In this document: one piece after another, positions 3,001 through 64,000 of the stretch
Numbering within the stretch: the stretch's first letter is position 1
Layout of the letters: every line of letters starts with the position of its first letter
Assembly: GCA_000004985.1 (NCBI GenBank)
Contig: GG738849.1
Strand: one strand, 5' to 3'
DNA: 64,000 bases
Source: Naegleria gruberi
Taxonomy: Eukaryota
Made by a program: the position numbers and the translations under genes
Notes under the pieces: generated by a model
Told to the model about the DNA's origin: nothing
The model's input: only the letters and a program-made list of their open reading frames with translations
The model's database searches: none

Positions 3001-6000
3001 NNNNNNNNNNNNNNNNNNNNNNNNNNNNNNNNNNNNNNNNNNNNNNNNNNNNNNNNNNNNNNNNNNNNNNNNNNNNNNNNNNNNNNNNNNNNNNNNNNNN
3101 NNNNNNNNNNNNNNNNNNNNNNNNNNNNNNNNNNNNNNNNNNNNNNNNNNNNNNNNNNNNNNNNNNNNNNNNNNNNNNNNNNNNNNNNNNNNNNNNNNNN
3201 NNNNNNNNNNNNNNNNNNNNNNNNNNNNNNNNNNNNNNNNNNNNNNNNNNNNNNNNNNNNNNNNNNNNNNNNNNNNNNNNNNNNNNNNNNNNNNNNNNNN
3301 NNNNNNNNNNNNNNNNNNNNNNNNNNNNNNNNNNNNNNNNNNNNNNNNNNNNNNNNNNNNNNNNNNNNNNNNNNNNNNNNNNNNNNNNNNNNNNNNNNNN
3401 NNNNNNNNNNNNNNNNNNNNNNNNNNNNNNNNNNNNNNNNNNNNNNNNNNNNNNNNNNNNNNNNNNNNNNNNNNNNNNNNNNNNNNNNNNNNNNNNNNNN
3501 NNNNNNNNNNNNNNNNNNNNNNNNNNNNNNNNNNNNNNNNNNNNNNNNNNNNNNNNNNNNNNNNNNNNNNNNNNNNNNNNNNNNNNNNNNNNNNNNNNNN
3601 NNNNNNNNNNNNNNNNNNNNNNNNNNNNNNNNNNNNNNNNNNNNNNNNNNNNNNNNNNNNNNNNNNNNNNNNNNNNNNNNNNNNNNNNNNNNNNNNNNNN
3701 NNNNNNNNNNNNNNNNNNNNNNNNNNNNNNNNNNNNNNNNNNNNNNNNNNNNNNNNNNNNNNNNNNNNNNNNNNNNNNNNNNNNNNNNNNNNNNNNNNNN
3801 NNNNNNNNNNNNNNNNNNNNNNNNNNNNNNNNNNNNNNNNNNNNNNNNNNNNNNNNNNNNNNNNNNNNNNNNNNNNNNNNNNNNNNNNNNNNNNNNNNNN
3901 NNNNNNNNNNNNNNNNNNNNNNNNNNNNNNNNNNNNNNNNNNNNNNNNNNNNNNNNNNNNNNNNNNNNNNNNNNNNNNNNNNNNNNNNNNNNNNNNNNNN
4001 NNNNNNNNNNNNNNNNNNNNNNNNNNNNNNNNNNNNNNNNNNNNNNNNNNNNNNNNNNNNNNNNNNNNNNNNNNNNNNNNNNNNNNNNNNNNNNNNNNNN
4101 NNNNNNNNNNNNNNNNNNNNNNNNNNNNNNNNNNNNNNNNNNNNNNNNNNNNNNNNNNNNNNNNNNNNNNNNNNNNNNNNNNNNNNNNNNNNNNNNNNNN
4201 NNNNNNNNNNNNNNNNNNNNNNNNNNNNNNNNNNNNNNNNNNNNNNNNNNNNNNNNNNNNNNNNNNNNNNNNNNNNNNNNNNNNNNNNNNNNNNNNNNNN
4301 NNNNNNNNNNNNNNNNNNNNNNNNNNNNNNNNNNNNNNNNNNNNNNNNNNNNNNNNNNNNNNNNNNNNNNNNNNNNNNNNNNNNNNNNNNNNNNNNNNNN
4401 NNNNNNNNNNNNNNNNNNNNNNNNNNNNNNNNNNNNNNNNNNNNNNNNNNNNNNNNNNNNNNNNNNNNNNNNNNNNNNNNNNNNNNNNNNNNNNNNNNNN
4501 NNNNNNNNNNNNNNNNNNNNNNNNNNNNNNNNNNNNNNNNNNNNNNNNNNNNNNNNNNNNNNNNNNNNNNNNNNNNNNNNNNNNNNNNNNNNNNNNNNNN
4601 NNNNNNNNNNNNNNNNNNNNNNNNNNNNNNNNNNNNNNNNNNNNNNNNNNNNNNNNNNNNNNNNNNNNNNNNNNNNNNNNNNNNNNNNNNNNNNNNNNNN
4701 NNNNNNNNNNNNNNNNNNNNNNNNNNNNNNNNNNNNNNNNNNNNNNNNNNNNNNNNNNNNNNNNNNNNNNNNNNNNNNNNNNNNNNNNNNNNNNNNNNNN
4801 NNNNNNNNNNNNNNNNNNNNNNNNNNNNNNNNNNNNNNNNNNNNNNNNNNNNNNNNNNNNNNNNNNNNNNNNNNNNNNNNNNNNNNNNNNNNNNNNNNNN
4901 NNNNNNNNNNNNNNNNNNNNNNNNNNNNNNNNNNNNNNNNNNNNNNNNNNNNNNNNNNNNNNNNNNNNNNNNNNNNNNNNNNNNNNNNNNNNNNNNNNNN
5001 NNNNNNNNNNNNNNNNNNNNNNNNNNNNNNNNNNNNNNNNNNNNNNNNNNNNNNNNNNNNNNNNNNNNNNNNNNNNNNNNNNNNNNNNNNNNNNNNNNNN
5101 NNNNNNNNNNNNNNNNNNNNNNNNNNNNNNNNNNNNNNNNNNNNNNNNNNNNNNNNNNNNNNNNNNNNNNNNNNNNNNNNNNNNNNNNNNNNNNNNNNNN
5201 NNNNNNNNNNNNNNNNNNNNNNNNNNNNNNNNNNNNNNNNNNNNNNNNNNNNNNNNNNNNNNNNNNNNNNNNNNNNNNNNNNNNNNNNNNNNNNNNNNNN
5301 NNNNNNNNNNNNNNNNNNNNNNNNNNNNNNNNNNNNNNNNNNNNNNNNNNNNNNNNNNNNNNNNNNNNNNNNNNNNNNNNNNNNNNNNNNNNNNNNNNNN
5401 NNNNNNNNNNNNNNNNNNNNNNNNNNNNNNNNNNNNNNNNNNNNNNNNNNNNNNNNNNNNNNNNNNNNNNNNNNNNNNNNNNNNNNNNNNNNNNNNNNNN
5501 NNNNNNNNNNNNNNNNNNNNNNNNNNNNNNNNNNNNNNNNNNNNNNNNNNNNNNNNNNNNNNNNNNNNNNNNNNNNNNNNNNNNNNNNNNNNNNNNNNNN
5601 NNNNNNNNNNNNNNNNNNNNNNNNNNNNNNNNNNNNNNNNNNNNNNNNNNNNNNNNNNNNNNNNNNNNNNNNNNNNNNNNNNNNNNNNNNNNNNNNNNNN
5701 NNNNNNNNNNNNNNNNNNNNNNNNNNNNNNNNNNNNNNNNNNNNNNNNNNNNNNNNNNNNNNNNNNNNNNNNNNNNNNNNNNNNNNNNNNNNNNNNNNNN
5801 NNNNNNNNNNNNNNNNNNNNNNNNNNNNNNNNNNNNNNNNNNNNNNNNNNNNNNNNNNNNNNNNNNNNNNNNNNNNNNNNNNNNNNNNNNNNNNNNNNNN
5901 NNNNNNNNNNNNNNNNNNNNNNNNNNNNNNNNNNNNNNNNNNNNNNNNNNNNNNNNNNNNNNNNNNNNNNNNNNNNNNNNNNNNNNNNNNNNNNNNNNNN

Positions 6001-9000
6001 NNNNNNNNNNNNNNNNNNNNNNNNNNNNNNNNNNNNNNNNNNNNNNNNNNNNNNNNNNNNNNNNNNNNNNNNNNNNNNNNNNNNNNNNNNNNNNNNNNNN
6101 NNNNNNNNNNNNNNNNNNNNNNNNNNNNNNNNNNNNNNNNNNNNNNNNNNNNNNNNNNNNNNNNNNNNNNNNNNNNNNNNNNNNNNNNNNNNNNNNNNNN
6201 NNNNNNNNNNNNNNNNNNNNNNNNNNNNNNNNNNNNNNNNNNNNNNNNNNNNNNNNNNNNNNNNNNNNNNNNNNNNNNNNNNNNNNNNNNNNNNNNNNNN
6301 NNNNNNNNNNNNNNNNNNNNNNNNNNNNNNNNNNNNNNNNNNNNNNNNNNNNNNNNNNNNNNNNNNNNNNNNNNNNNNNNNNNNNNNNNNNNNNNNNNNN
6401 NNNNNNNNNNNNNNNNNNNNNNNNNNNNNNNNNNNNNNNNNNNNNNNNNNNNNNNNNNNNNNNNNNNNNNNNNNNNNNNNNNNNNNNNNNNNNNNNNNNN
6501 NNNNNNNNNNNNNNNNNNNNNNNNNNNNNNNNNNNNNNNNNNNNNNNNNNNNNNNNNNNNNNNNNNNNNNNNNNNNNNNNNNNNNNNNNNNNNNNNNNNN
6601 NNNNNNNNNNNNNNNNNNNNNNNNNNNNNNNNNNNNNNNNNNNNNNNNNNNNNNNNNNNNNNNNNNNNNNNNNNNNNNNNNNNNNNNNNNNNNNNNNNNN
6701 NNNNNNNNNNNNNNNNNNNNNNNNNNNNNNNNNNNNNNNNNNNNNNNNNNNNNNNNNNNNNNNNNNNNNNNNNNNNNNNNNNNNNNNNNNNNNNNNNNNN
6801 NNNNNNNNNNNNNNNNNNNNNNNNNNNNNNNNNNNNNNNNNNNNNNNNNNNNNNNNNNNNNNNNNNNNNNNNNNNNNNNNNNNNNNNNNNNNNNNNNNNN
6901 NNNNNNNNNNNNNNNNNNNNNNNNNNNNNNNNNNNNNNNNNNNNNNNNNNNNNNNNNNNNNNNNNNNNNNNNNNNNNNNNNNNNNNNNNNNNNNNNNNNN
7001 NNNNNNNNNNNNNNNNNNNNNNNNNNNNNNNNNNNNNNNNNNNNNNNNNNNNNNNNNNNNNNNNNNNNNNNNNNNNNNNNNNNNNNNNNNNNNNNNNNNN
7101 NNNNNNNNNNNNNNNNNNNNNNNNNNNNNNNNNNNNNNNNNNNNNNNNNNNNNNNNNNNNNNNNNNNNNNNNNNNNNNNNNNNNNNNNNNNNNNNNNNNN
7201 NNNNNNNNNNNNNNNNNNNNNNNNNNNNNNNNNNNNNNNNNNNNNNNNNNNNNNNNNNNNNNNNNNNNNNNNNNNNNNNNNNNNNNNNNNNNNNNNNNNN
7301 NNNNNNNNNNNNNNNNNNNNNNNNNNNNNNNNNNNNNNNNNNNNNNNNNNNNNNNNNNNNNNNNNNNNNNNNNNNNNNNNNNNNNNNNNNNNNNNNNNNN
7401 NNNNNNNNNNNNNNNNNNNNNNNNNNNNNNNNNNNNNNNNNNNNNNNNNNNNNNNNNNNNNNNNNNNNNNNNNNNNNNNNNNNNNNNNNNNNNNNNNNNN
7501 NNNNNNNNNNNNNNNNNNNNNNNNNNNNNNNNNNNNNNNNNNNNNNNNNNNNNNNNNNNNNNNNNNNNNNNNNNNNNNNNNNNNNNNNNNNNNNNNNNNN
7601 NNNNNNNNNNNNNNNNNNNNNNNNNNNNNNNNNNNNNNNNNNNNNNNNNNNNNNNNNNNNNNNNNNNNNNNNNNNNNNNNNNNNNNNNNNNNNNNNNNNN
7701 NNNNNNNNNNNNNNNNNNNNNNNNNNNNNNNNNNNNNNNNNNNNNNNNNNNNNNNNNNNNNNNNNNNNNNNNNNNNNNNNNNNNNNNNNNNNNNNNNNNN
7801 NNNNNNNNNNNNNNNNNNNNNNNNNNNNNNNNNNNNNNNNNNNNNNNNNNNNNNNNNNNNNNNNNNNNNNNNNNNNNNNNNNNNNNNNNNNNNNNNNNNN
7901 NNNNNNNNNNNNNNNNNNNNNNNNNNNNNNNNNNNNNNNNNNNNNNNNNNNNNNNNNNNNNNNNNNNNNNNNNNNNNNNNNNNNNNNNNNNNNNNNNNNN
8001 NNNNNNNNNNNNNNNNNNNNNNNNNNNNNNNNNNNNNNNNNNNNNNNNNNNNNNNNNNNNNNNNNNNNNNNNNNNNNNNNNNNNNNNNNNNNNNNNNNNN
8101 NNNNNNNNNNNNNNNNNNNNNNNNNNNNNNNNNNNNNNNNNNNNNNNNNNNNNNNNNNNNNNNNNNNNNNNNNNNNNNNNNNNNNNNNNNNNNNNNNNNN
8201 NNNNNNNNNNNNNNNNNNNNNNNNNNNNNNNNNNNNNNNNNNNNNNNNNNNNNNNNNNNNNNNNNNNNNNNNNNNNNNNNNNNNNNNNNNNNNNNNNNNN
8301 NNNNNNNNNNNNNNNNNNNNNNNNNNNNNNNNNNNNNNNNNNNNNNNNNNNNNNNNNNNNNNNNNNNNNNNNNNNNNNNNNNNNNNNNNNNNNNNNNNNN
8401 NNNNNNNNNNNNNNNNNNNNNNNNNNNNNNNNNNNNNNNNNNNNNNNNNNNNNNNNNNNNNNNNNNNNNNNNNNNNNNNNNNNNNNNNNNNNNNNNNNNN
8501 NNNNNNNNNNNNNNNNNNNNNNNNNNNNNNNNNNNNNNNNNNNNNNNNNNNNNNNNNNNNNNNNNNNNNNNNNNNNNNNNNNNNNNNNNNNNNNNNNNNN
8601 NNNNNNNNNNNNNNNNNNNNNNNNNNNNNNNNNNNNNNNNNNNNNNNNNNNNNNNNNNNNNNNNNNNNNNNNNNNNNNNNNNNNNNNNNNNNNNNNNNNN
8701 NNNNNNNNNNNNNNNNNNNNNNNNNNNNNNNNNNNNNNNNNNNNNNNNNNNNNNNNNNNNNNNNNNNNNNNNNNNNNNNNNNNNNNNNNNNNNNNNNNNN
8801 NNNNNNNNNNNNNNNNNNNNNNNNNNNNNNNNNNNNNNNNNNNNNNNNNNNNNNNNNNNNNNNNNNNNNNNNNNNNNNNNNNNNNNNNNNNNNNNNNNNN
8901 NNNNNNNNNNNNNNNNNNNNNNNNNNNNNNNNNNNNNNNNNNNNNNNNNNNNNNNNNNNNNNNNNNNNNNNNNNNNNNNNNNNNNNNNNNNNNNNNNNNN

Positions 9001-58512: not shown

Positions 58513-58959
58513 CCTGCCACATGTATAATAATTCATTCGGTCAACTTTTTCTGATTGAAAATTAAAATATATTGCAACATCAATCTGGGAATCATCAATA
58601 TCAAATGGCAATCCACAATTAGCTTGATTTTCTGTAAAATTATTCATCAAGACGATATTAATATCAAATCTTGCATATTGTTTGACATTTAAATTTTTGA
58701 CATCTTGATTGATTTGCATAGCAGCCACCCGAAGAAGATTTTGCATAGAGCATGGCATTTGCTTTCCGCATTCATTATTCTCTTGTACTATTGTAATCCC
58801 TCCGAAATCATCATAATACTTTGCAAAATATGTGTAATTAAATGTTACTCTTTCCAGTGTTGTTAAATTTTCTAGAGTTTGAGTGTACGCTCTTGTTGTG
58901 TTAAAGAAAAGGCACAGTGCGAGCAAAATAAGTATTTGAAGAGTGGGGCATCGAAGCAT
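58513..58959 (-). CDS. 5' fragment (149 codons) of a gene for a secreted or membrane glycoprotein. It has an N-terminal signal peptide and N-x-T sequons, and the rest of the gene runs into the assembly gap.
   Basis: Minus-strand ATG at 58959 in an aaaaaaaataaacaaaATG context. Hand translation: MLRCPTLQILILLALCLFFNTTRA|YTQTLENLTTLERVTFNYTYFAKYYDDFGGITIVQENNECGKQMPCSMQNLLRVAAMQINQDVKNLNVKQYARFDINIVLMNNFTENQANCGLPFDIDDSQIDVAIYFNFQSEKVDRMNYYTCGR. It stays open for all 149 codons down to the gap edge; no tta/cta/tca triplets occur in this frame on the plus strand. The N-terminus has a hydrophobic core followed by a small-residue cleavage-like site (TRA-Y), with three N-x-T sequons and several Cys. 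The ORF track missed it because no stop codon is reached. Family assignment is not possible; a receptor-type extracellular ligand-binding domain is only a guess. Confidence 0.5.
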
Positions 58960-59174
58960 TTTGTTTATTTTTTTTGTAAACACTCACAGCAAATACTGTC
59001 TCACTGGTCATCAACAATTTGGATTCATTTCAAATATTTCAGAACTCTATTTAAATTAAGGATGTGTTATAAACCTTAAAAAGTTAGATAAGAACTTTTA
59101 CTGTAAATATCAAATGAATCATAAACAATTACTACTACAATTACTTCTCACAAATGTTTTCTCACACTCAAAAT

Positions 59175-59180
59175 TTTATT
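59175..59180 (-). promoter_or_regulatory. Putative polyadenylation signal (AATAAA on minus strand) for the lactone-oxidase gene
   Basis: The plus strand reads tttatt at 59175..59180, i.e. AATAAA on the minus strand, about 14 nt downstream of the TAA stop at 59194..59196. The position fits a eukaryotic 3' end, but AT-rich spacers give many chance hexamers. Confidence 0.3.
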
Positions 59181-59193
59181 TCACAATATAATT

Positions 59194-60552
59194 TTACAGG
59201 TTCAATCTTTCCAAATAGTCATTCATCAAAATGTTGTTTGTATCATTCTTTCGTCTCAAATTCTTAAAATCATTCCATTTTGGATAGAGATCTTCAGAAT
59301 CAAGTTTCCAATCCAACTTGGCCCAGTGAGGTCTTCCTCCCAACTCTAACATGATCCTATTGTATTCAGCAAAATATTCTTGGTATGGAATAGTGAAATC
59401 ATAAGGTCTATACATGATAATTCCAATATAACAGCTATCTCTACCATAACATGGACTCAACCAAACATCATCCCTCTTTACAAATCTAACCTCAACTGGG
59501 AAGTGAACCTTATATTTCTTTTCTTCAATCATTTTTTTAAGTCTCAGGAGAGCTTCTTTAGTATTCTCAATTGGAATGGACCACTCATTGACAAATTGCT
59601 TGAATAGGCAATCAAAATTGAATACTTTAAAGCTGACATCATGAACTTGAGTTTTAGAACTGAATAATAAATTAAACCAAGTATTGTTAATCATAGGAAT
59701 AAGGGAAGGAATAAACTTGGAAACAAAGAGAGCAAATTCGAGTGAATAAAATCCAACCAGTCTATCAATAAAAAAGTTACGAATTCTGCCAAAGAATGTA
59801 ATCTTATCTGAATCACCAACAAATGTCTTGCTATCAATCAAGCTTCTGGTGGCACTTGTAGTGATACACTTATCATTGGTTGTGTGTGGGAACCACCAAA
59901 ATCTCCAATGATCTGAGCTAGGAATGAGTGAATCCAAATTTTCCAAAACTTTTGTAAGTGTTGATGGTTCCTGAACTTGAGTTAATGCAAAAGCTTCAAC
60001 ACATTGAATGGTAACTGTTGAAATGATACCCAAACATCCCAATGAGCAAACATAGGCATCGAAATCCTCATCTCCCTTTTTAACAGTCACAACTTGACCT
60101 GATGGTAAAACAATATCCATTTCCACAATAAAGGTTGGCAAACATCCAAAATTAATACCAGTTCCATGAGTACCAGTAGAAATAATGCCAGAAATAGTTT
60201 GGAATGAAATGGATCCCAAAACTGCTATGGCCATATTGTAATTCTTGTACAATTCGGCATTAATAGTTTCGATGGTTGTACCAGCTTGAACTTTTGCAGT
60301 CAACTTTTCCTTATCTACACTAATAATCTTTGAATATTGATCCAGAATGATCATGTGACCATTTGTGAGTGAAATATCACATGGTGAATGTCCAGAACCA
60401 ATCACTTTTACTTTCTCTCCTCTAAAATTAGCAACCTTGACAATGGTTTGAATTTCCTCTTCACTCTTTGGATGATGTACAAAGGTTGGTTTGGATTTGT
60501 AAATGTTGGCCCAATTTCTAAACACAAATCTCTTATTCGGAGCAAATTTAAT
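59194..60552 (-). CDS. Exon 2 (452 codons plus stop) of the FAD-linked sugar-1,4-lactone oxidase gene (L-gulonolactone oxidase / D-arabinono-1,4-lactone oxidase family, VAO-type flavoprotein)
   Basis: The long minus ORF 59194..60525 (443 aa in the track) begins in the track at a GTG, not an ATG. The same frame stays open upstream to 60552 (IKFAPNKRF-VFRNWANIY...), where a TAG|ATT acceptor sits. Conserved family features read directly from the translation: the N-terminal FRNWA..Y..KP motif; GSGHSP (59 aa into exon 2), containing the His that is covalently flavinylated in this family; GSISFQTISGIISTGTHG, the FAD-binding PCMH-type domain; and the C-terminal GGRPHWAK (HWAK) motif of the ALO domain. 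These are established hallmarks of GULO/ALO enzymes. Confidence 0.85.
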   Translation of the reverse strand: MKFAPNKRFVFRNWANIYKSKPTFVHHPKSEEEIQTIVKVANFRGEKVKVIGSGHSPCDISLTNGHMIILDQYSKIISVDKEKLTAKVQAGTTIETINAELYKNYNMAIAVLGSISFQTISGIISTGTHGTGINFGCLPTFIVEMDIVLPSGQVVTVKKGDEDFDAYVCSLGCLGIISTVTIQCVEAFALTQVQEPSTLTKVLENLDSLIPSSDHWRFWWFPHTTNDKCITTSATRSLIDSKTFVGDSDKITFFGRIRNFFIDRLVGFYSLEFALFVSKFIPSLIPMINNTWFNLLFSSKTQVHDVSFKVFNFDCLFKQFVNEWSIPIENTKEALLRLKKMIEEKKYKVHFPVEVRFVKRDDVWLSPCYGRDSCYIGIIMYRPYDFTIPYQEYFAEYNRIMLELGGRPHWAKLDWKLDSEDLYPKWNDFKNLRRKNDTNNILMNDYLERLNL

Positions 60553-60606
60553 CTATTTTTTTAATAAATATTAATTGTTATCCAAAAAATTGTTATCTTT
60601 GCTTAC
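60553..60606 (-). other. Spliceosomal intron (54 nt, phase 0) of the lactone-oxidase gene
   Basis: Minus-strand sequence gtaagcaaagataacaattttttggataacaattaatatttattaaaaaaatag has a canonical GTAAGC donor and a TAG acceptor and is very AT-rich. Removing it joins the exon-1 ATG frame to the exon-2 frame exactly; exon 1 is 75 nt, so phase 0. Without splicing the first in-frame ATG in exon 2 lies downstream of the GSGHSP motif, which would truncate the FAD-binding region, so the spliced model is strongly preferred. Confidence 0.75.
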
Positions 60607-60681
60607 ATTATCCAATTCCGATACTCCTCCTCCAACTAGGACTGAAGATGATGAAGAAGCAGCATTAGGTTGTGCAGACAT
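60607..60681 (-). CDS. Exon 1 (25 codons: MSAQPNAASSSSSVLVGGGVSELDN) of the FAD-linked sugar-1,4-lactone oxidase gene
   Basis: Minus ATG at 60681 in a ttaaaaaaaATGtct context, which is A-rich upstream like the other starts in this window. A Ser/Gly-rich low-complexity N-terminal extension ends at the GTAAGC donor. Joined to exon 2 the full product is 477 aa. Confidence 0.7.
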
Positions 60682-60847
60682 TTTTTTTAAAATTGAGTTT
60701 TCTTACAGTTTGGAGAAAATGAGGAAGTATTAATTTTGAAAGCTCCTTTCCATCACACAAATCAAATTGCAGATTTTAACTCCGTAGTATTATAATTGGA
60801 AAGAGAATGAGTTATTAGTAAAAGAAAAAGAATTGAATTGAATATTA

Positions 60848-62455
60848 TTAACAACATGCAATCAGTTCATGATTTACTAAGTGTTCATAATCTACATCGT
60901 CTTCATTGTGAGAGATCATGTGAGATACCCACTCTTCATTGCCAAATGATAAACGATCTACATGATGGTGTTTAATAGCAAAGTTGGTAGAGTCTGAACA
61001 GTTCATGACTTCATTAACTCCATCTTCTATTAAACCCCTTCTGAGAGATTCCTTTCTGTATTTACATGGTTGAGATGAGTTCAAACTCAAATAGTGATAA
61101 TAGAGGGGAGAGTCAATACTTTTAAGATATTCAACACTGTCCTTATCCTTTTCCAGGAAGGCATAAAGATAACAGCAGATGGCTCTCCACTCATTCAGGA
61201 ATGGGATTGGATTAACATTTAAATTGAGTATTCTAAACGCCTTCTTTAACAATTGAATCATATCTTCGTGTCTATGATTGGTCCAATAACGAAAGACATA
61301 GGTACAAATCTCCCTAGCATCATCTCCCATATATTTACTGGCACAATAAATGTTGGAGAGGGCATTCTTTGGGAGAAAGTTGGAACAGAATGAGTATTCG
61401 TGAGCATCCATAAAGTGATCGGTTTCAACTGTAAATTCATACTCCTCACACAATTCGATGAGTTGTCTCTTAGCAATCTTGTTACCAAAGTAAGCTGGCA
61501 AGTAGAGTCTGAGCATGCTACTGGTACCAAAAAAGTCTGTCAGTGGGCAAACTGTAAGGAAACGAAGAGTCAACTCGATTGGATAGAAAACTTGGGAGAT
61601 AAAATTACTATTTTTGAGTATTTTAAGCTTGGAAACGAGAGATTTGAAATCGTAAATAGTTTTCAATGGTACACATTGACAAATTCTACTCAAAATTTCA
61701 AACTCTTCAACTGTACAACCACTCTCAAACTTTTCAATTAACTTGGTTGTGAGAGTTGGATTTGGTCTGAAATGGAATACAGTGTCGTATTGATTTTTCA
61801 TTTGGGGAAGAAAATCCTTCTTGTACACTTCAGAAGGAGCATTGCTGACTGATCTCTGTTTCCATTCGTTGAGTAATTGATCGAGTGGAACGACCATATT
61901 CTCCAAACTCTTGTATCTATCACAGCAAACACTCGTATACAGAACATCACCCAAGAAAATCATATCGATCAGAGTTCTATATTGTTCAGAGTGATGAATG
62001 GTAAATCTAATGATATTGAATGTAAAGAGGATTTTTTGCCCCATCACTATTGCTTCACCTGCATCTTTGGTTACATCTGTTAATTGAAATCCATTGAAAT
62101 CTCTATTTCTCATTCTCATGGATACTCTTCTCTGGTTGGGATAACGTGGAGCTGATTTTCTTCTTGAGAACAGTATCTGCTTGTTGCATTTCTCCAAGGT
62201 CTCTACCGATTCACATATGGATTCATAGTAACGTTGTTGAAATTTGATCACCTCCAACTGATTCTTTTCTAGGGCTTGTATAATCATTGTATTGATAAGG
62301 TTATTATCAATTGTATAGTACATGTTAAGGTGAATAGATGTTCCTTCCTGAGCACGTGTTGTCTGTATGGCCTTCTCTATCAGGGCGGAATAGCCACCCA
62401 CCGAAGGAACACAAGCAGGCATTTCACTAATGTTTTCCAATACTGTCTTGGACAT
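60848..62455 (-). CDS. Uncharacterised protein, 535 aa; no recognisable family or domain signature; ends in ...ELIACC
   Basis: Uninterrupted minus ORF of 536 codons from the ATG at 62455 (context atcaaaaacaacATGtcc, with an in-frame TAA 8 codons upstream and no intervening ATG) to the TAA at 60848. Its length is far beyond chance in AT-rich DNA. I recognise no catalytic or binding motif (no P-loop, Rossmann GxGxxG, kinase or DxD signatures). There are no long hydrophobic segments suggesting transmembrane helices, and no N-terminal signal peptide. It is moderately Cys-rich and ends in a Cys-Cys dipeptide. Confidence 0.7.
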   Translation of the reverse strand: MSKTVLENISEMPACVPSVGGYSALIEKAIQTTRAQEGTSIHLNMYYTIDNNLINTMIIQALEKNQLEVIKFQQRYYESICESVETLEKCNKQILFSRRKSAPRYPNQRRVSMRMRNRDFNGFQLTDVTKDAGEAIVMGQKILFTFNIIRFTIHHSEQYRTLIDMIFLGDVLYTSVCCDRYKSLENMVVPLDQLLNEWKQRSVSNAPSEVYKKDFLPQMKNQYDTVFHFRPNPTLTTKLIEKFESGCTVEEFEILSRICQCVPLKTIYDFKSLVSKLKILKNSNFISQVFYPIELTLRFLTVCPLTDFFGTSSMLRLYLPAYFGNKIAKRQLIELCEEYEFTVETDHFMDAHEYSFCSNFLPKNALSNIYCASKYMGDDAREICTYVFRYWTNHRHEDMIQLLKKAFRILNLNVNPIPFLNEWRAICCYLYAFLEKDKDSVEYLKSIDSPLYYHYLSLNSSQPCKYRKESLRRGLIEDGVNEVMNCSDSTNFAIKHHHVDRLSFGNEEWVSHMISHNEDDVDYEHLVNHELIACC

Positions 62456-63168
62456 GTTGTTTTTGATATATATTATTTACACAGAGTATTATTTAAGGCA
62501 AACAGAGAGATTGCAATCTCACTAATGTATGGCGACTGTTAATGTTTGAAGTACTTCAATTATACTAATGGCACTGTTGGATACAACAACAACTTGAACA
62601 AATTGTAGAGTGGATAAGAAAACTTTTTTTTCTGTTTGGTTTTACCAAAACTCTGTAGAGCATTACGCTCTTATTAGACCTGCTTGGTGCAGTGCGCAAT
62701 GCAAATTTAAGGAAATAACTCACATTTTGGCCTCTTGTAGATGATTCTTGGTGGGAGATAGAACAACATCAAACGACCAAAGTATCTCCCCTATCAAAAA
62801 TGGTCTATACCCTTTGGCATTTGAATTGGAGGCAAGGTTCAAATAAGTAAGTCCTTAGACAATCTTAATGTTTTTTGCCACTTTTCAATATGGACCTCCA
62901 TAATATTAGATTTTGCAGGTACTATACCTAATATATACCTAATAACAAAGATTTACACTCTCTGTTGAAAATAATAGATCATTGAGGTTAATACACGAGA
63001 GAAGGAAAAAAAGGTTGCATGATTTCCTAAGAAAGTGATATACCATGTAGAGAAGAAAATCTCTATTGTTGATGCGTCTAAATGCAACCCTTAATAGTAA
63101 GAAACATCACCAAATGTCATACCTTCAAGTAAGAAAATTGAGAGATTTCGGTCAGAGTTTGAGGATCC

Positions 63169-63603
63169 TTAGTGCTTATTAAAGAACTGTTCAATCGGAT
63201 TTTCTCCCTTCTCAATCGCGATATCATATGAATTATGATTGAATCGATAAAGAAAATTTTGCATTTGATTGAAATAGTGATTCTCAAGTGTAGTCCGTGG
63301 ATGAACAATGGGCATGTTCAAAATTTGTGCCGTTCTGAAATAGTAAGGTTGTGAAGAGACATACTCAAGGATTCTTTCCCAATGCCTTTTAAATTCTTTG
63401 AATTGCATTTGTTCGTGACGATTCAAATAGAATTCAAAGTATTTCATTTGGATTTCAATAAACATGCTCGTAATCTTCATTTGTATCCTTCTCTTGTTAA
63501 TATTCTTCTTCAACAACTTGCAACATTTGAGTGCAATTTGATTCCTTTCCTGATTAGTTCTATTAGTTCTCTTTGATTTCAATGTATTGACTTGATCCAA
63601 CAA
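63169..63603 (-). CDS. ORF of 144 codons (unknown product) immediately downstream of, and in a different frame from, the F-box ORF. It may be the 3' part of the same gene after a frameshift or an unresolved intron.
   Basis: The track start at 63603 is TTG, not ATG; the first in-frame ATG is at 63480 (MKITSMFIEIQMKYFEFYLNRHEQ...). The frame is preceded by an in-frame TAA at 63604..63606 and overlaps the stop of the upstream F-box ORF by 25 nt. It ends in TAA at 63169. No recognisable domain. It is coding-like in composition but could be a pseudogene segment. Confidence 0.3.
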   Translation of the reverse strand: MLDQVNTLKSKRTNRTNQERNQIALKCCKLLKKNINKRRIQMKITSMFIEIQMKYFEFYLNRHEQMQFKEFKRHWERILEYVSSQPYYFRTAQILNMPIVHPRTTLENHYFNQMQNFLYRFNHNSYDIAIEKGENPIEQFFNKH

Positions 63604-63983
63604 TTATCCAAATATCTTCCATATCTTATAATCTCCTTCTGTATGGTAATATTACGATACAGGTAGCAATTTGCAAAAATATCAAACCTTCCTCTTCTTG
63701 GTAGATGTTTAGTTTGTTCCATCTGGAGAAGAAGGCATCCGTGCAGAAGAGTTTCTTCTTCCGATAAGTTGTTGATACTACTACTACTTGATTGTTGTTG
63801 CTGCAATTCTTGGTGAATCAATTTCTCCAAGGAAAAGAGCCAAAATAAACCATCGTGATGGAGTAGTAGTGAGTGAATTTGTTGATTGAGAAGTAGAAGA
63901 GTGGAGTTGTGATGAATGGGTAAATATTCTGCTAGAATTTTAAAGATAATTTCATTTGGAAGACTCATGATTTCTAGAAACAT
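63579..63983 (-). CDS. F-box domain protein ORF (134 aa) with an N-terminal F-box motif and a poly-Gln/poly-Ser tract. Probably a 5' exon or a fragment of a larger gene.
   Basis: Minus ATG at 63983 in a caaaaaaATGttt context, with an in-frame TAA two codons upstream. The N-terminus MFLEIMSLPNEIIFKILAEYLP matches the F-box consensus (LP.EI...IL..L). It is followed by Leu-rich spacing and QELQQQQSSSSSINN. It ends in TGA at 63579, only 134 aa in, which is short for an F-box protein that normally also carries a substrate-binding domain. Confidence 0.5.
   Translation of the reverse strand: MFLEIMSLPNEIIFKILAEYLPIHHNSTLLLLNQQIHSLLLHHDGLFWLFSLEKLIHQELQQQQSSSSSINNLSEEETLLHGCLLLQMEQTKHLPRRGRFDIFANCYLYRNITIQKEIIRYGRYLDNCWIKSIH
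63777..63803 (-). repeat. Short trinucleotide microsatellite, (CAA)3(AGT)4 on the coding strand, encoding QQQQSSSSS within the F-box ORF
   Basis: The plus strand reads actactactacttgattgttgttgctg. On the minus strand this is cag caa caa caa tca agt agt agt agt. Seen directly. Confidence 0.6.
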
Positions 63984-64000
63984 TTTTTGTTTTATTTCTC

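What the first reader, a model, noticed from the sequence alone, without database searches (positions are those of the whole stretch)
60848..62455. 535-aa intron-less protein with no recognisable family and a C-terminal Cys-Cys
This is the largest ORF in the readable region and clearly real by length, yet I cannot match it to any enzyme, transporter, GTPase, kinase or structural family by motif. It lacks signal peptide and transmembrane character, is moderately Cys-rich (CC pairs at SVCCDRY, ICCYLY and the terminal IACC), and has Trp/Tyr-rich helical-looking stretches (FRYWTNHRHEDMIQLLKKAFRILNL). It is a candidate lineage-restricted or fast-evolving protein sandwiched between two conserved genes.
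Basis: partly seen in the sequence, partly recalled or inferred. Interest (0 to 1): 0.6.

Follow-up and report, generated by a model that had tools for sequence, protein, structure and literature searches.

The report
Orphan Naegleria gene, function unknown
The 535-codon reading frame is a real gene of the amoeba Naegleria gruberi, already in public databases as a hypothetical protein; it has almost no relatives anywhere and is a dead gene in the brain-eating N. fowleri, so it is an ordinary lineage-restricted, dispensable gene whose function cannot be assigned.

Summary
An ATG-to-TAA frame of 535 codons lies on the minus strand at 60848..62455. It is far longer than chance allows, and its codon usage matches the neighbouring ALO gene. 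It is identical to the public Naegleria gruberi model NAEGRDRAFT_78267, a hypothetical protein.

Pfam, NCBIfam, PHROGs, PDB sequences and phage tblastn gave no significant match. Scans of viral and metagenome contigs found no relative. An exhaustive HMMER search of 1.84 billion representative proteins found only two relatives:
- A copy in N. fowleri, about 50% identical. It is a pseudogene with three frameshifts, an in-frame TAA inside the conserved core and a damaged N-terminus. The lesions are identical in two independent assemblies.
- An intact 480-497-aa protein, 23% identical, on short contigs of an unidentified eukaryote from two metagenomes.

The internal SVCCDRY Cys-Cys is invariant, as are H155, D164, C259-Q260, FGN 323-325 and W423-R424..C427.

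AlphaFold models were unusable (pLDDT 32-35), so no fold could be assigned.

Verdict: a genuine, taxonomically restricted, non-essential gene. This is common in Naegleria, and the biochemical function stays open. Low interest.

The parts
60848..62455 (-). Complete single-exon coding sequence, 535 aa plus TAA. It equals the public N. gruberi model NAEGRDRAFT_78267.
   Evidence: ORF list. 100% identity over 100% of the query to the NCBI/UniRef entry. Length far beyond chance. Host-like codon usage.
61016..62134 (-). Conserved core, residues 108-480. This is the part that aligns with both the N. fowleri pseudogene and the metagenomic homologue.
   Evidence: tblastn gave query 110-531 against L001 and 109-478 against L002. 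Alignment A1.
61916..62098 (-). Beta-rich module, residues 120-180. It shows alternating hydrophobic/polar patterns and GD/NG turns, and it carries the invariant H155, D164 and Y173.
   Evidence: Alignment A1. Four strands at 123-178 in the 4-sequence AF2 model, at low confidence. The pattern was read from the sequence.
61922..61927 (-). Invariant internal Cys-Cys (C177-C178) inside Y-T/A-x-V/I-C-C-D/E-R/K. It reads SVCCDRY here, CVCCDRT in N. fowleri and TICCEKY in the metagenome protein.
   Evidence: Invariant columns of A1. The same stretch was picked as the most conserved pattern by the locus scans.
61481..61489 (-). Invariant F323-G324-N325 inside (Y/V)(L/I)(P/S)A(Y/K)FGN.
   Evidence: Alignment A1. 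Used as a conserved pattern by the scans.
62102..62167 (-). Basic stretch, residues 97-118 (SRRKSAPRYPNQRRVSMRMRNR), with two RRxS sites. It is basic in N. fowleri too but not in the metagenomic homologue.
   Evidence: Motif scan. Alignment. Any role (NLS or kinase site) is inference only.
60851..60856 (-). Terminal Cys-Cys (C534-C535). It is specific to N. gruberi and not a family feature.
   Evidence: Sequence. Alignment A1 shows ...QCLNN in N. fowleri and ...WMDN in P0003/P0005.

Best explanation
Shown:
- This is a genuine, single-exon, protein-coding gene of Naegleria gruberi (NAEGRDRAFT_78267).
- It encodes a soluble intracellular protein of about 63 kDa, with no signal peptide and no membrane span.
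- It belongs to a very small, taxonomically restricted family. The only known copies are this one, a decayed copy in N. fowleri, and an intact 23%-identical copy in an unidentified intron-bearing microbial eukaryote.
- The family is dispensable, because N. fowleri carries only a pseudogene.

Inferred mechanism (about 30% likely):
- The protein is a non-enzymatic binding or regulatory protein built from two modules.
- The first is a short beta-rich module (residues ~120-180). Its invariant H155 / D164 / Y173 / C177-C178 patch would be the functional surface.
- The second is a larger all-helical module (residues ~190-480).
- In N. gruberi only, the terminal Cys pair might add a lipid anchor by S-acylation. 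That is a species-level extra and not part of the family's mechanism.
For: Real gene:
- ORF length against chance.
- Codon usage like the ALO neighbour, and frame-specific.
- Identical to the public gene model.
- The MSKT start is shared with the N. fowleri copy.
- Homology runs over nearly the full length in a 23%-identical intact protein, at E 6e-11 against 1.84 billion sequences. This shows the protein sequence has been maintained in a distant lineage.

Restricted family:
- The exhaustive HMMER search gave 3 hits in all.
- Word-index searches with the protein, the profile and P0005 added nothing.
- Metagenome and viral contig scans were empty.
- Naegleria genomes are known to hold hundreds of such genes (PMC8296547, PMC9928731).

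Dispensable:
- L001 and L003 are N. fowleri. Their flanking actin-like and ephrin-receptor-like proteins fall in the same 90%-identity clusters as the N. fowleri proteins FDP41_005926 and FDP41_005929.
- The two assemblies differ at 1 of 1570 nt across the locus and share every lesion.
- The lesions are stops at 4991 and 5015, a loss of about 60 N-terminal codons, frameshifts at about 5393-5460, 5917-5940 and 6043-6046, and TCA to TAA at 6195.
- The neighbouring genes are intact.

Soluble:
- Maximum hydropathy is 1.34.

Non-enzymatic leaning:
- There is no P-loop, HExxH, CxxC, CxxCH, GxGxxG or DHHC motif.
- No enzyme family was hit in any library.
Against: - The mechanism is not supported by any positive homology or by a reliable structure. 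Both AF2 models have pLDDT 32-35, and they disagree on residues 123-178, which come out helical in one and as strands in the other.
- An invariant His/Asp/Cys-Cys cluster would suit a catalytic or metal site at least as well as a binding surface.
- No expression or proteomic evidence could be obtained.
- Orthology of the N. fowleri copy is not shown by synteny. Its neighbours are an actin-like gene and a glyoxalase gene, not ALO.
- N. lovaniensis and other heteroloboseans could not be examined directly.
Confidence: 0.7

Rival explanations
1. It is a very diverged member of a known fold or family, for example a fast-evolving subunit of a conserved eukaryotic complex. Sequence methods cannot recognise it, and the shallow alignment prevented structure prediction.
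For: Heterolobosea are deeply diverged, and many of their proteins escape sequence searches. This is general knowledge, not tested here. The failure of AF2 leaves the fold open.
Against: A subunit of an essential conserved complex should not be a pseudogene in N. fowleri. The profile and domain-slice searches against PDB and Pfam gave no consistent weak hit shared by the two distant homologues.
Confidence: 0.25
2. It is a thiol-dependent enzyme or a metal-binding (Zn or Fe-S) protein. The active or ligand site would be the invariant H155, D164 and C177-C178, possibly with C259, C371, C427 and H454.
For: Five Cys and two His are invariant across 23%-identical sequences. Cys is the second most conserved residue type between P0001 and P0003, at 6 of 16 against 23% overall.
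Against: Cys and Trp are normally the most conserved residues, so the enrichment is weak. The His-x8-Asp-x12-Cys spacing matches no thiol-hydrolase clan I know of, which is from my own knowledge and was not tested. There is no CxxC or CxxCH motif. No family hit was found.
Confidence: 0.15
3. It is a relic of a mobile element or a virus-derived gene that entered heterolobosean genomes and is now decaying or domesticated.
For: The distribution is patchy. The gene has a single exon. The N. gruberi and N. fowleri positions are not syntenic. One lineage carries a pseudogene. The metagenomic copy occurs with two unrelated 5' contexts.
Against: No terminal inverted or long direct repeats flank the gene in either species. 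There is no hit in IMG/VR contigs, phage records or PHROGs. There is no paralogue among the annotated N. gruberi proteins that were searched. Codon usage is host-like. The ~50% identity between the two Naegleria copies does not suggest a recent transfer.
Confidence: 0.08
4. It is a peripheral membrane protein anchored through its C-terminal Cys-Cys, by Rab-like double geranylgeranylation or by S-acylation. This was the feature that caught the first reader's eye.
For: The protein ends in -IACC. The N. fowleri copy keeps a Cys four residues from its end (-CLNN).
Against: There is no GTPase domain for REP/RabGGTase recognition. The motif is absent from the intact distant homologue. There is no CaaX box.
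Confidence: 0.15
5. It is a spurious long ORF that is not translated.
For: No expression data could be retrieved here.
Against: P(535 open codons) is about 1e-18 and the shuffle maximum is 162 aa. The codon bias is frame-specific. Protein-level homologues exist in two other organisms.
Confidence: 0.02

Closest known systems
Taxonomically restricted ('orphan') genes of the Naegleria accessory genome, as described by Herman et al. 2021 (PMC8296547) and the Naegleria pangenome study (PMC9928731)
   Same: It has no homologue outside a narrow lineage and no domain. It is present in one Naegleria species and lost in another. This matches the reported picture: a core genome that is only 25% of the pangenome, 92 genes absent in N. 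fowleri but present in N. gruberi and N. lovaniensis, and hundreds of species-specific orthogroups of unknown function.
   Different: It is not strictly species-specific. A 23%-identical intact homologue exists in an unidentified eukaryote, and a recognisable pseudogene survives in N. fowleri. The gene is therefore old within its lineage and is not a de novo ORF.
Rab GTPases and other proteins ending in -CC or -CXC (double geranylgeranylation)
   Same: The protein ends in two cysteines.
   Different: There is no Ras/Rab domain or P-loop. The CC end is not conserved in the family. The resemblance is confined to two residues.
Yeast iso-1 cytochrome c, the best PDB sequence hit (E 0.016 for the slice profile A6)
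   Same: A weak 57-residue alignment of query residues ~352-408 to the C-terminal half of the chain.
   Different: The E-value is not significant. Every hit in the list is yeast iso-1 or one of its variants. The heme-binding CxxCH motif is absent. I treat this as chance.

Membership tests
Any Pfam-A, NCBIfam or PHROGs family | A profile match at or near the curated threshold | tested here: not met
   Pfam: 0 families at E<=1 for the whole protein. Also 0 at E<=10 for its three slices, and only scattered sub-threshold hits for the P0003 slices. P0003 and P0005: none significant. NCBIfam: 0. PHROGs: only E 0.015-0.024.
Proteins with a solved structure (PDB) | Sequence or profile similarity to a PDB chain, or fold similarity of a reliable model | tested here: inconclusive
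   Sequence and profile searches gave nothing significant. The fold test could not be done properly because the models have pLDDT 32-35. Foldseek on the better model gave best E 0.15 and TM below 0.2.
Rab-type doubly geranylgeranylated proteins | A small-GTPase domain with a P-loop, which is needed for REP/RabGGTase recognition | tested here: not met
   No Ras-family Pfam hit. No [AG]xxxxGK[ST] motif.
Rab-type doubly geranylgeranylated proteins | A C-terminal CC or CXC conserved among homologues | tested here: not met
   Present only in N. gruberi. N. fowleri ends ...QCLNN, and P0003/P0005 end ...VWMDN.
CaaX-prenylated proteins | Cys at position -4 followed by two aliphatic residues | tested here: not met
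   The last four residues are I-A-C-C, and the regex found no match.
c-type cytochromes | The CxxCH heme-attachment motif | tested here: not met
   No CxxCH in P0001 or P0003.
Transposable-element or virus-derived genes | Flanking terminal repeats, multiple copies, or homologues in viral or mobile-element collections | tested here: not met
   No meaningful inverted or direct repeats flank the gene. The viral contig scan was empty. Phage tblastn gave E 0.1. No paralogue was found.
Taxonomically restricted (orphan) protein-coding genes | Evidence of coding, plus absence of homologues outside a narrow lineage in exhaustive searches | tested here: met
   Coding evidence. Only 3 proteins at E<=1e-3 among 1.84 billion representatives. 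The taxon of the third member is unknown beyond 'eukaryote with short GT-AG introns'.
Processed or unitary pseudogene (the N. fowleri copy, L001:4919-6395) | Disabling frameshifts or stops that are reproducible in independent assemblies, with intact neighbouring genes | tested here: met
   Three frameshifts plus an in-frame TAA in the conserved core, and two earlier stops. L001 (Logan SRR29240419) and L003 (ENA ERZ2098899) differ at only 1 of 1570 nt across the locus and share every lesion. The neighbours are intact.

The most novel reading that the evidence does not exclude
The protein founds a previously undescribed family, and possibly a new fold, that is confined to Heterolobosea-like protists. 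Its invariant His/Asp/Cys-Cys patch would be a new kind of thiol or metal site. Its inactivation in N. fowleri, but not in the free-living N. gruberi, would reflect a lifestyle-linked gene loss.
Probability: 0.1. Interest if true: 0.45.

Novelty: already known. Interest (0 to 1): 0.15.

Why it matters
It matters little as it stands. The gene is already public as a hypothetical protein, and Naegleria genomes contain hundreds of comparable lineage-restricted genes.

- The family is older than the species, because an intact homologue 23% identical exists in an unidentified eukaryote.
- The copy in the human pathogen N. fowleri is an unannotated pseudogene with clearly readable lesions.
- The eye-catching terminal Cys-Cys is not a family feature, whereas the internal Cys-Cys is invariant.

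If the family later proved to have a biochemical activity, the contrast between N. gruberi (intact) and N. fowleri (dead) would be a tidy example of differential gene loss between a harmless and a pathogenic amoeba. Nothing here links it to pathogenicity.

Tried and rejected
- Family libraries: Pfam, NCBIfam and PHROGs on the whole protein, on three slices and on the distant homologue gave nothing usable.
- PDB by sequence: a phmmer search, a whole-family profile and three domain-slice profiles gave only noise. The hits were fructose-2,6-bisphosphatase at E 0.16, RAG1L at E 1.1 and yeast iso-1 cytochrome c at E 0.016. The cytochrome hit was rejected because all hits are yeast iso-1 variants and there is no CxxCH motif.
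- Extending the family: word-index searches with the alignment and with P0005 found nothing new. Two metagenome-contig scans and one viral-contig scan were empty. The metagenome scans did not even recover L002, so that collection does not hold every source sample.
- Structure: single-sequence AF2 gave pLDDT 32.5, and AF2 with a 4-row alignment gave pLDDT 35.2. Both are unusable. Foldseek against PDB on the poor model gave only noise. I ran no further search on a meaningless model.
- Mobile-element idea: no flanking repeats were found in N. gruberi or N. fowleri.
- RNA genes: no tRNA was found and the only Rfam match was far below threshold (E 0.32) in the readable window.
- Expression and literature: the locus tag and the JGI id 78267 appear in no searchable paper, and not in the supplements of three Naegleria omics papers. 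The one apparent hit was a number inside a p-value.
- Exact-sequence lookup of the N. gruberi protein on assembled contigs: not on record.
- Readings from memory (clan CE His-Asp-Cys proteases, a PD-(D/E)XK nuclease motif, a helix-turn-helix around AYFGN): the spacings do not fit or could not be tested, so I make no claim from them.

Full report
**1. What is in the window**

Of the 64,000 positions, only 58513-64000 are bases; the rest is a run of N. The readable 5.5 kb has 34% G+C.

The finding's ORF is there exactly as described. It lies on the minus strand at 62455 down to 60848, starts with ATG, ends with TAA and encodes 535 aa. It is the longest ORF present.
- With the local base composition a stop is expected every ~13 codons. 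The probability of 535 open codons is about 1e-18.
- 200 shuffles of the region never gave an ORF longer than 162 aa.
- In-frame codon counts correlate with those of the neighbouring ALO gene at r = 0.77, against 0.41-0.42 for the other two frames. Relative synonymous codon usage correlates at r = 0.84.
- The protein has 19 Cys, 29 Tyr and only 4 Trp. It has no segment hydrophobic enough for a membrane span (maximum 19-residue hydropathy 1.34) and no hydrophobic N-terminus.

**2. Identity**

The protein is 100% identical over its full length to 'hypothetical protein NAEGRDRAFT_78267 [Naegleria gruberi]', from an 850-kb scaffold. The window is therefore N. gruberi nuclear DNA, and the gene model is already public.

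The context fits a compact eukaryotic genome.
- 166 nt downstream lies the D-arabinono-1,4-lactone oxidase gene, with Pfam ALO at 1e-80 and FAD_binding_4 at 5e-27.
- Read from the sequence, that gene has a 25-codon first exon (60681..60607), a 54-nt GT-AG intron (60606..60553) and a second exon running to 59194.
- Upstream there is a 713-nt spacer, then two overlapping ORFs (63169..63983) without any Pfam family.

**3. Search for relatives**

The libraries gave nothing.
- Pfam-A had 0 families at E<=1 for the whole protein and 0 at E<=10 for its three slices. NCBIfam had none, and PHROGs had nothing of weight.
- PDB sequences gave only noise. This held with the single sequence, with a family profile and with three domain-slice profiles.
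- The most persistent weak hit was yeast iso-1 cytochrome c (E 0.016). All hits in that list are yeast iso-1 or its variants. It covers only the C-terminal half of the chain, and the query has no CxxCH. I reject it.

The exhaustive HMMER search of 1.84 billion representative proteins returned three sequences in all:
- the query itself;
- P0002, 209 aa and 54% identical;
- P0003, 480 aa, 23% identical, E 6e-11.

Attempts to widen the family added nothing. These were word-index searches with the family profile and with P0005, two metagenome-contig scans and one viral-contig scan.

**4. The N. fowleri copy is a pseudogene**

P0002 lies on a 34.5-kb contig, L001, assembled from SRR29240419. A 99%-identical variant, P0004, lies on L003 from ENA assembly ERZ2098899.

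These contigs are N. fowleri. Their flanking actin-like and ephrin-receptor-like proteins fall in the same 90%-identity clusters as N. fowleri FDP41_005926/CAG4719165 and FDP41_005929/CAG4719168.

tblastn shows that the homology to the N. gruberi protein runs through several reading frames. Reading the DNA gives the following picture:
- The copy opens with the same MSKT start, at L001 4919, but hits stops at 4991 and 5015.
- It lacks about 60 N-terminal codons.
- Its core runs in frame 2 (to ~5392), then frame 0 (5463 to ~5915), then frame 1 (5917-6045), then frame 0 again.
- The last shift is a clean 1-nt deletion between ...IPF and LNQW...
- A TCA-to-TAA change at 6195 interrupts ...YNKE*LRRG...
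- The two independent assemblies differ at 1 of 1570 nt across the locus and share all lesions, so these are not assembly errors.
- Neighbouring genes are intact.
- Among named NCBI proteins the exhaustive search hit only the N. gruberi query; both relatives are unnamed entries. This is consistent with the locus being unannotated in N. fowleri.

The stitched sequence is still 53% identical to the N. gruberi protein. This suggests a fairly recent inactivation after long constraint, which is inference.

The N. fowleri neighbours (actin-like, glyoxalase) differ from those in N. gruberi (ALO). Orthology therefore rests on best-hit status only.

**5. The distant homologue**

P0003 and P0005 come from 2.4-2.7-kb contigs of two metagenomes (JGI 3300002220 and ENA ERZ27315067).
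- The ORF is intact in both.
- The adjacent class III cyclase gene has a 43-nt GT-AG intron that splits ...YDLWG|DTINTASRMES.... The organism is therefore a eukaryote with short introns, and its taxon is otherwise unknown.
- The two contigs are 99.95% identical over 2.2 kb but unrelated at the 5' end, which gives the two proteins different N-termini.

**6. What is conserved**

In the four-row alignment A1, homology runs from about residue 108 to 480, with weaker matches at the very N-terminus.

Invariant polar residues include H155, D164, Y173, C177-C178, C259-Q260, N325 (in FGN), C371, W423-R424, C427 and H454.
- The internal Cys-Cys (SVCCDRY / CVCCDRT / TICCEKY) is the most conserved stretch. 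The scanning tools chose it as such.
- The terminal Cys-Cys is not conserved. N. fowleri ends -QCLNN, and the metagenomic protein ends -VWMDN.
- Cys is conserved at 6 of 16 aligned positions, against 23% overall. That is in the normal range for cysteine and is not a strong argument for a metal site.
- No classical cofactor or catalytic motif is present.
- Residues ~120-180 show alternating hydrophobic/polar patterns and GD/NG turns, typical of beta hairpins. The rest looks helical.

The two AF2 models agree on the helices but disagree on the beta region, and both have pLDDT 32-35. No fold can be assigned. Foldseek on the better model returned only noise.

**7. Interpretation**

Shown:
- The gene is a real protein-coding gene.
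- It belongs to a tiny, taxonomically restricted family.
- The family is older than the genus-level split, because an intact 23%-identical relative exists.
- N. fowleri carries only a decayed copy.

Inferred:
- The gene is dispensable, because no intact second copy was seen in N. fowleri.
- The protein is a soluble, two-module protein. It is most likely a binding or regulatory component, and the conserved H/D/Y/CC patch would be its functional surface. I give this about 30%.

The rivals are:
- an undetectably diverged member of a known family (25%);
- a thiol or metal site protein (15%);
- C-terminal lipid anchoring as a species-specific addition (15%);
- a mobile-element or viral relic (8%). 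No flanking repeats and no viral hits were found;
- a spurious ORF (2%).

**8. Novelty and interest**

The gene is already in the databases as a hypothetical protein.

Published comparisons report that the Naegleria core genome is only a quarter of the pangenome. They also report 92 genes lost in N. fowleri but present in both N. gruberi and N. lovaniensis, and hundreds of species-specific orthogroups of unknown function (PMC9928731; PMC8296547). A specialist would not be surprised.

The small new facts are the N. fowleri pseudogene, the metagenomic homologue, and the correction about which Cys-Cys matters. Interest is low (0.15).

The most novel reading still open is a new fold or family with a new thiol or metal site, lost in the pathogen. 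I give it about 10%.

Noticed in passing
window 1-58512: 91% of the window is a run of N. Only 58513-64000 (5488 nt) can be read.
   Followed up: yes
window 59194-60681 (minus strand): The ALO (D-arabinono-1,4-lactone oxidase) gene has two exons: a 25-codon exon 1 at 60681..60607, a 54-nt GT-AG intron at 60606..60553, and exon 2 at 60552..59194. The mechanical ORF list shows only the second exon, from an internal GTG.
   Followed up: partly
window 63169-63983 (minus strand): Two ORFs (134 aa and 144 aa) overlap by 25 nt in different frames, with no room for an intron. The first begins MFLEIMSLPNEIIFKILAEYLP, which looks F-box-like by eye but has no Pfam hit at E<=10. This could be two genes, a frameshift or a sequence error.
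   Followed up: partly
window 58513-58959 (minus strand): The N-terminal 149 aa of a gene cut off by the N run. It starts with a signal-peptide-like MLRCPTLQILILLALCLFFNTTRAYT and has no Pfam family.
   Followed up: partly
window 62456-63168: A 713-nt stretch upstream of the ORF with no ORF of 80 aa or more, no tRNA and no Rfam match above noise. It is long for this compact region; compare the 166-nt spacer on the other side.
   Followed up: partly
L001:4919-6395 (N. fowleri, Logan SRR29240419) = L003:9595-11071 (ENA ERZ2098899): An apparently unannotated pseudogene of the family in N. fowleri, lying between the actin-like gene FDP41_005926 and a glyoxalase-family gene. All lesions are shared by two assemblies that are 99.9% identical across the locus.
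   Followed up: yes
L002:1-525 versus L004:1-239: The two metagenomic contigs carrying the distant homologue are 99.95% identical over 2167 nt but unrelated at the 5' end, so the proteins (P0003, P0005) have different N-termini. The cause could be a haplotype or paralogue difference, or a chimeric assembly.
   Followed up: no
L002:1956-2692 (minus strand): A class III adenylate/guanylate cyclase gene with a 43-nt GT-AG intron inside the WGDT(V/I)NTASRMES motif. It marks the contig as eukaryotic.
   Followed up: partly
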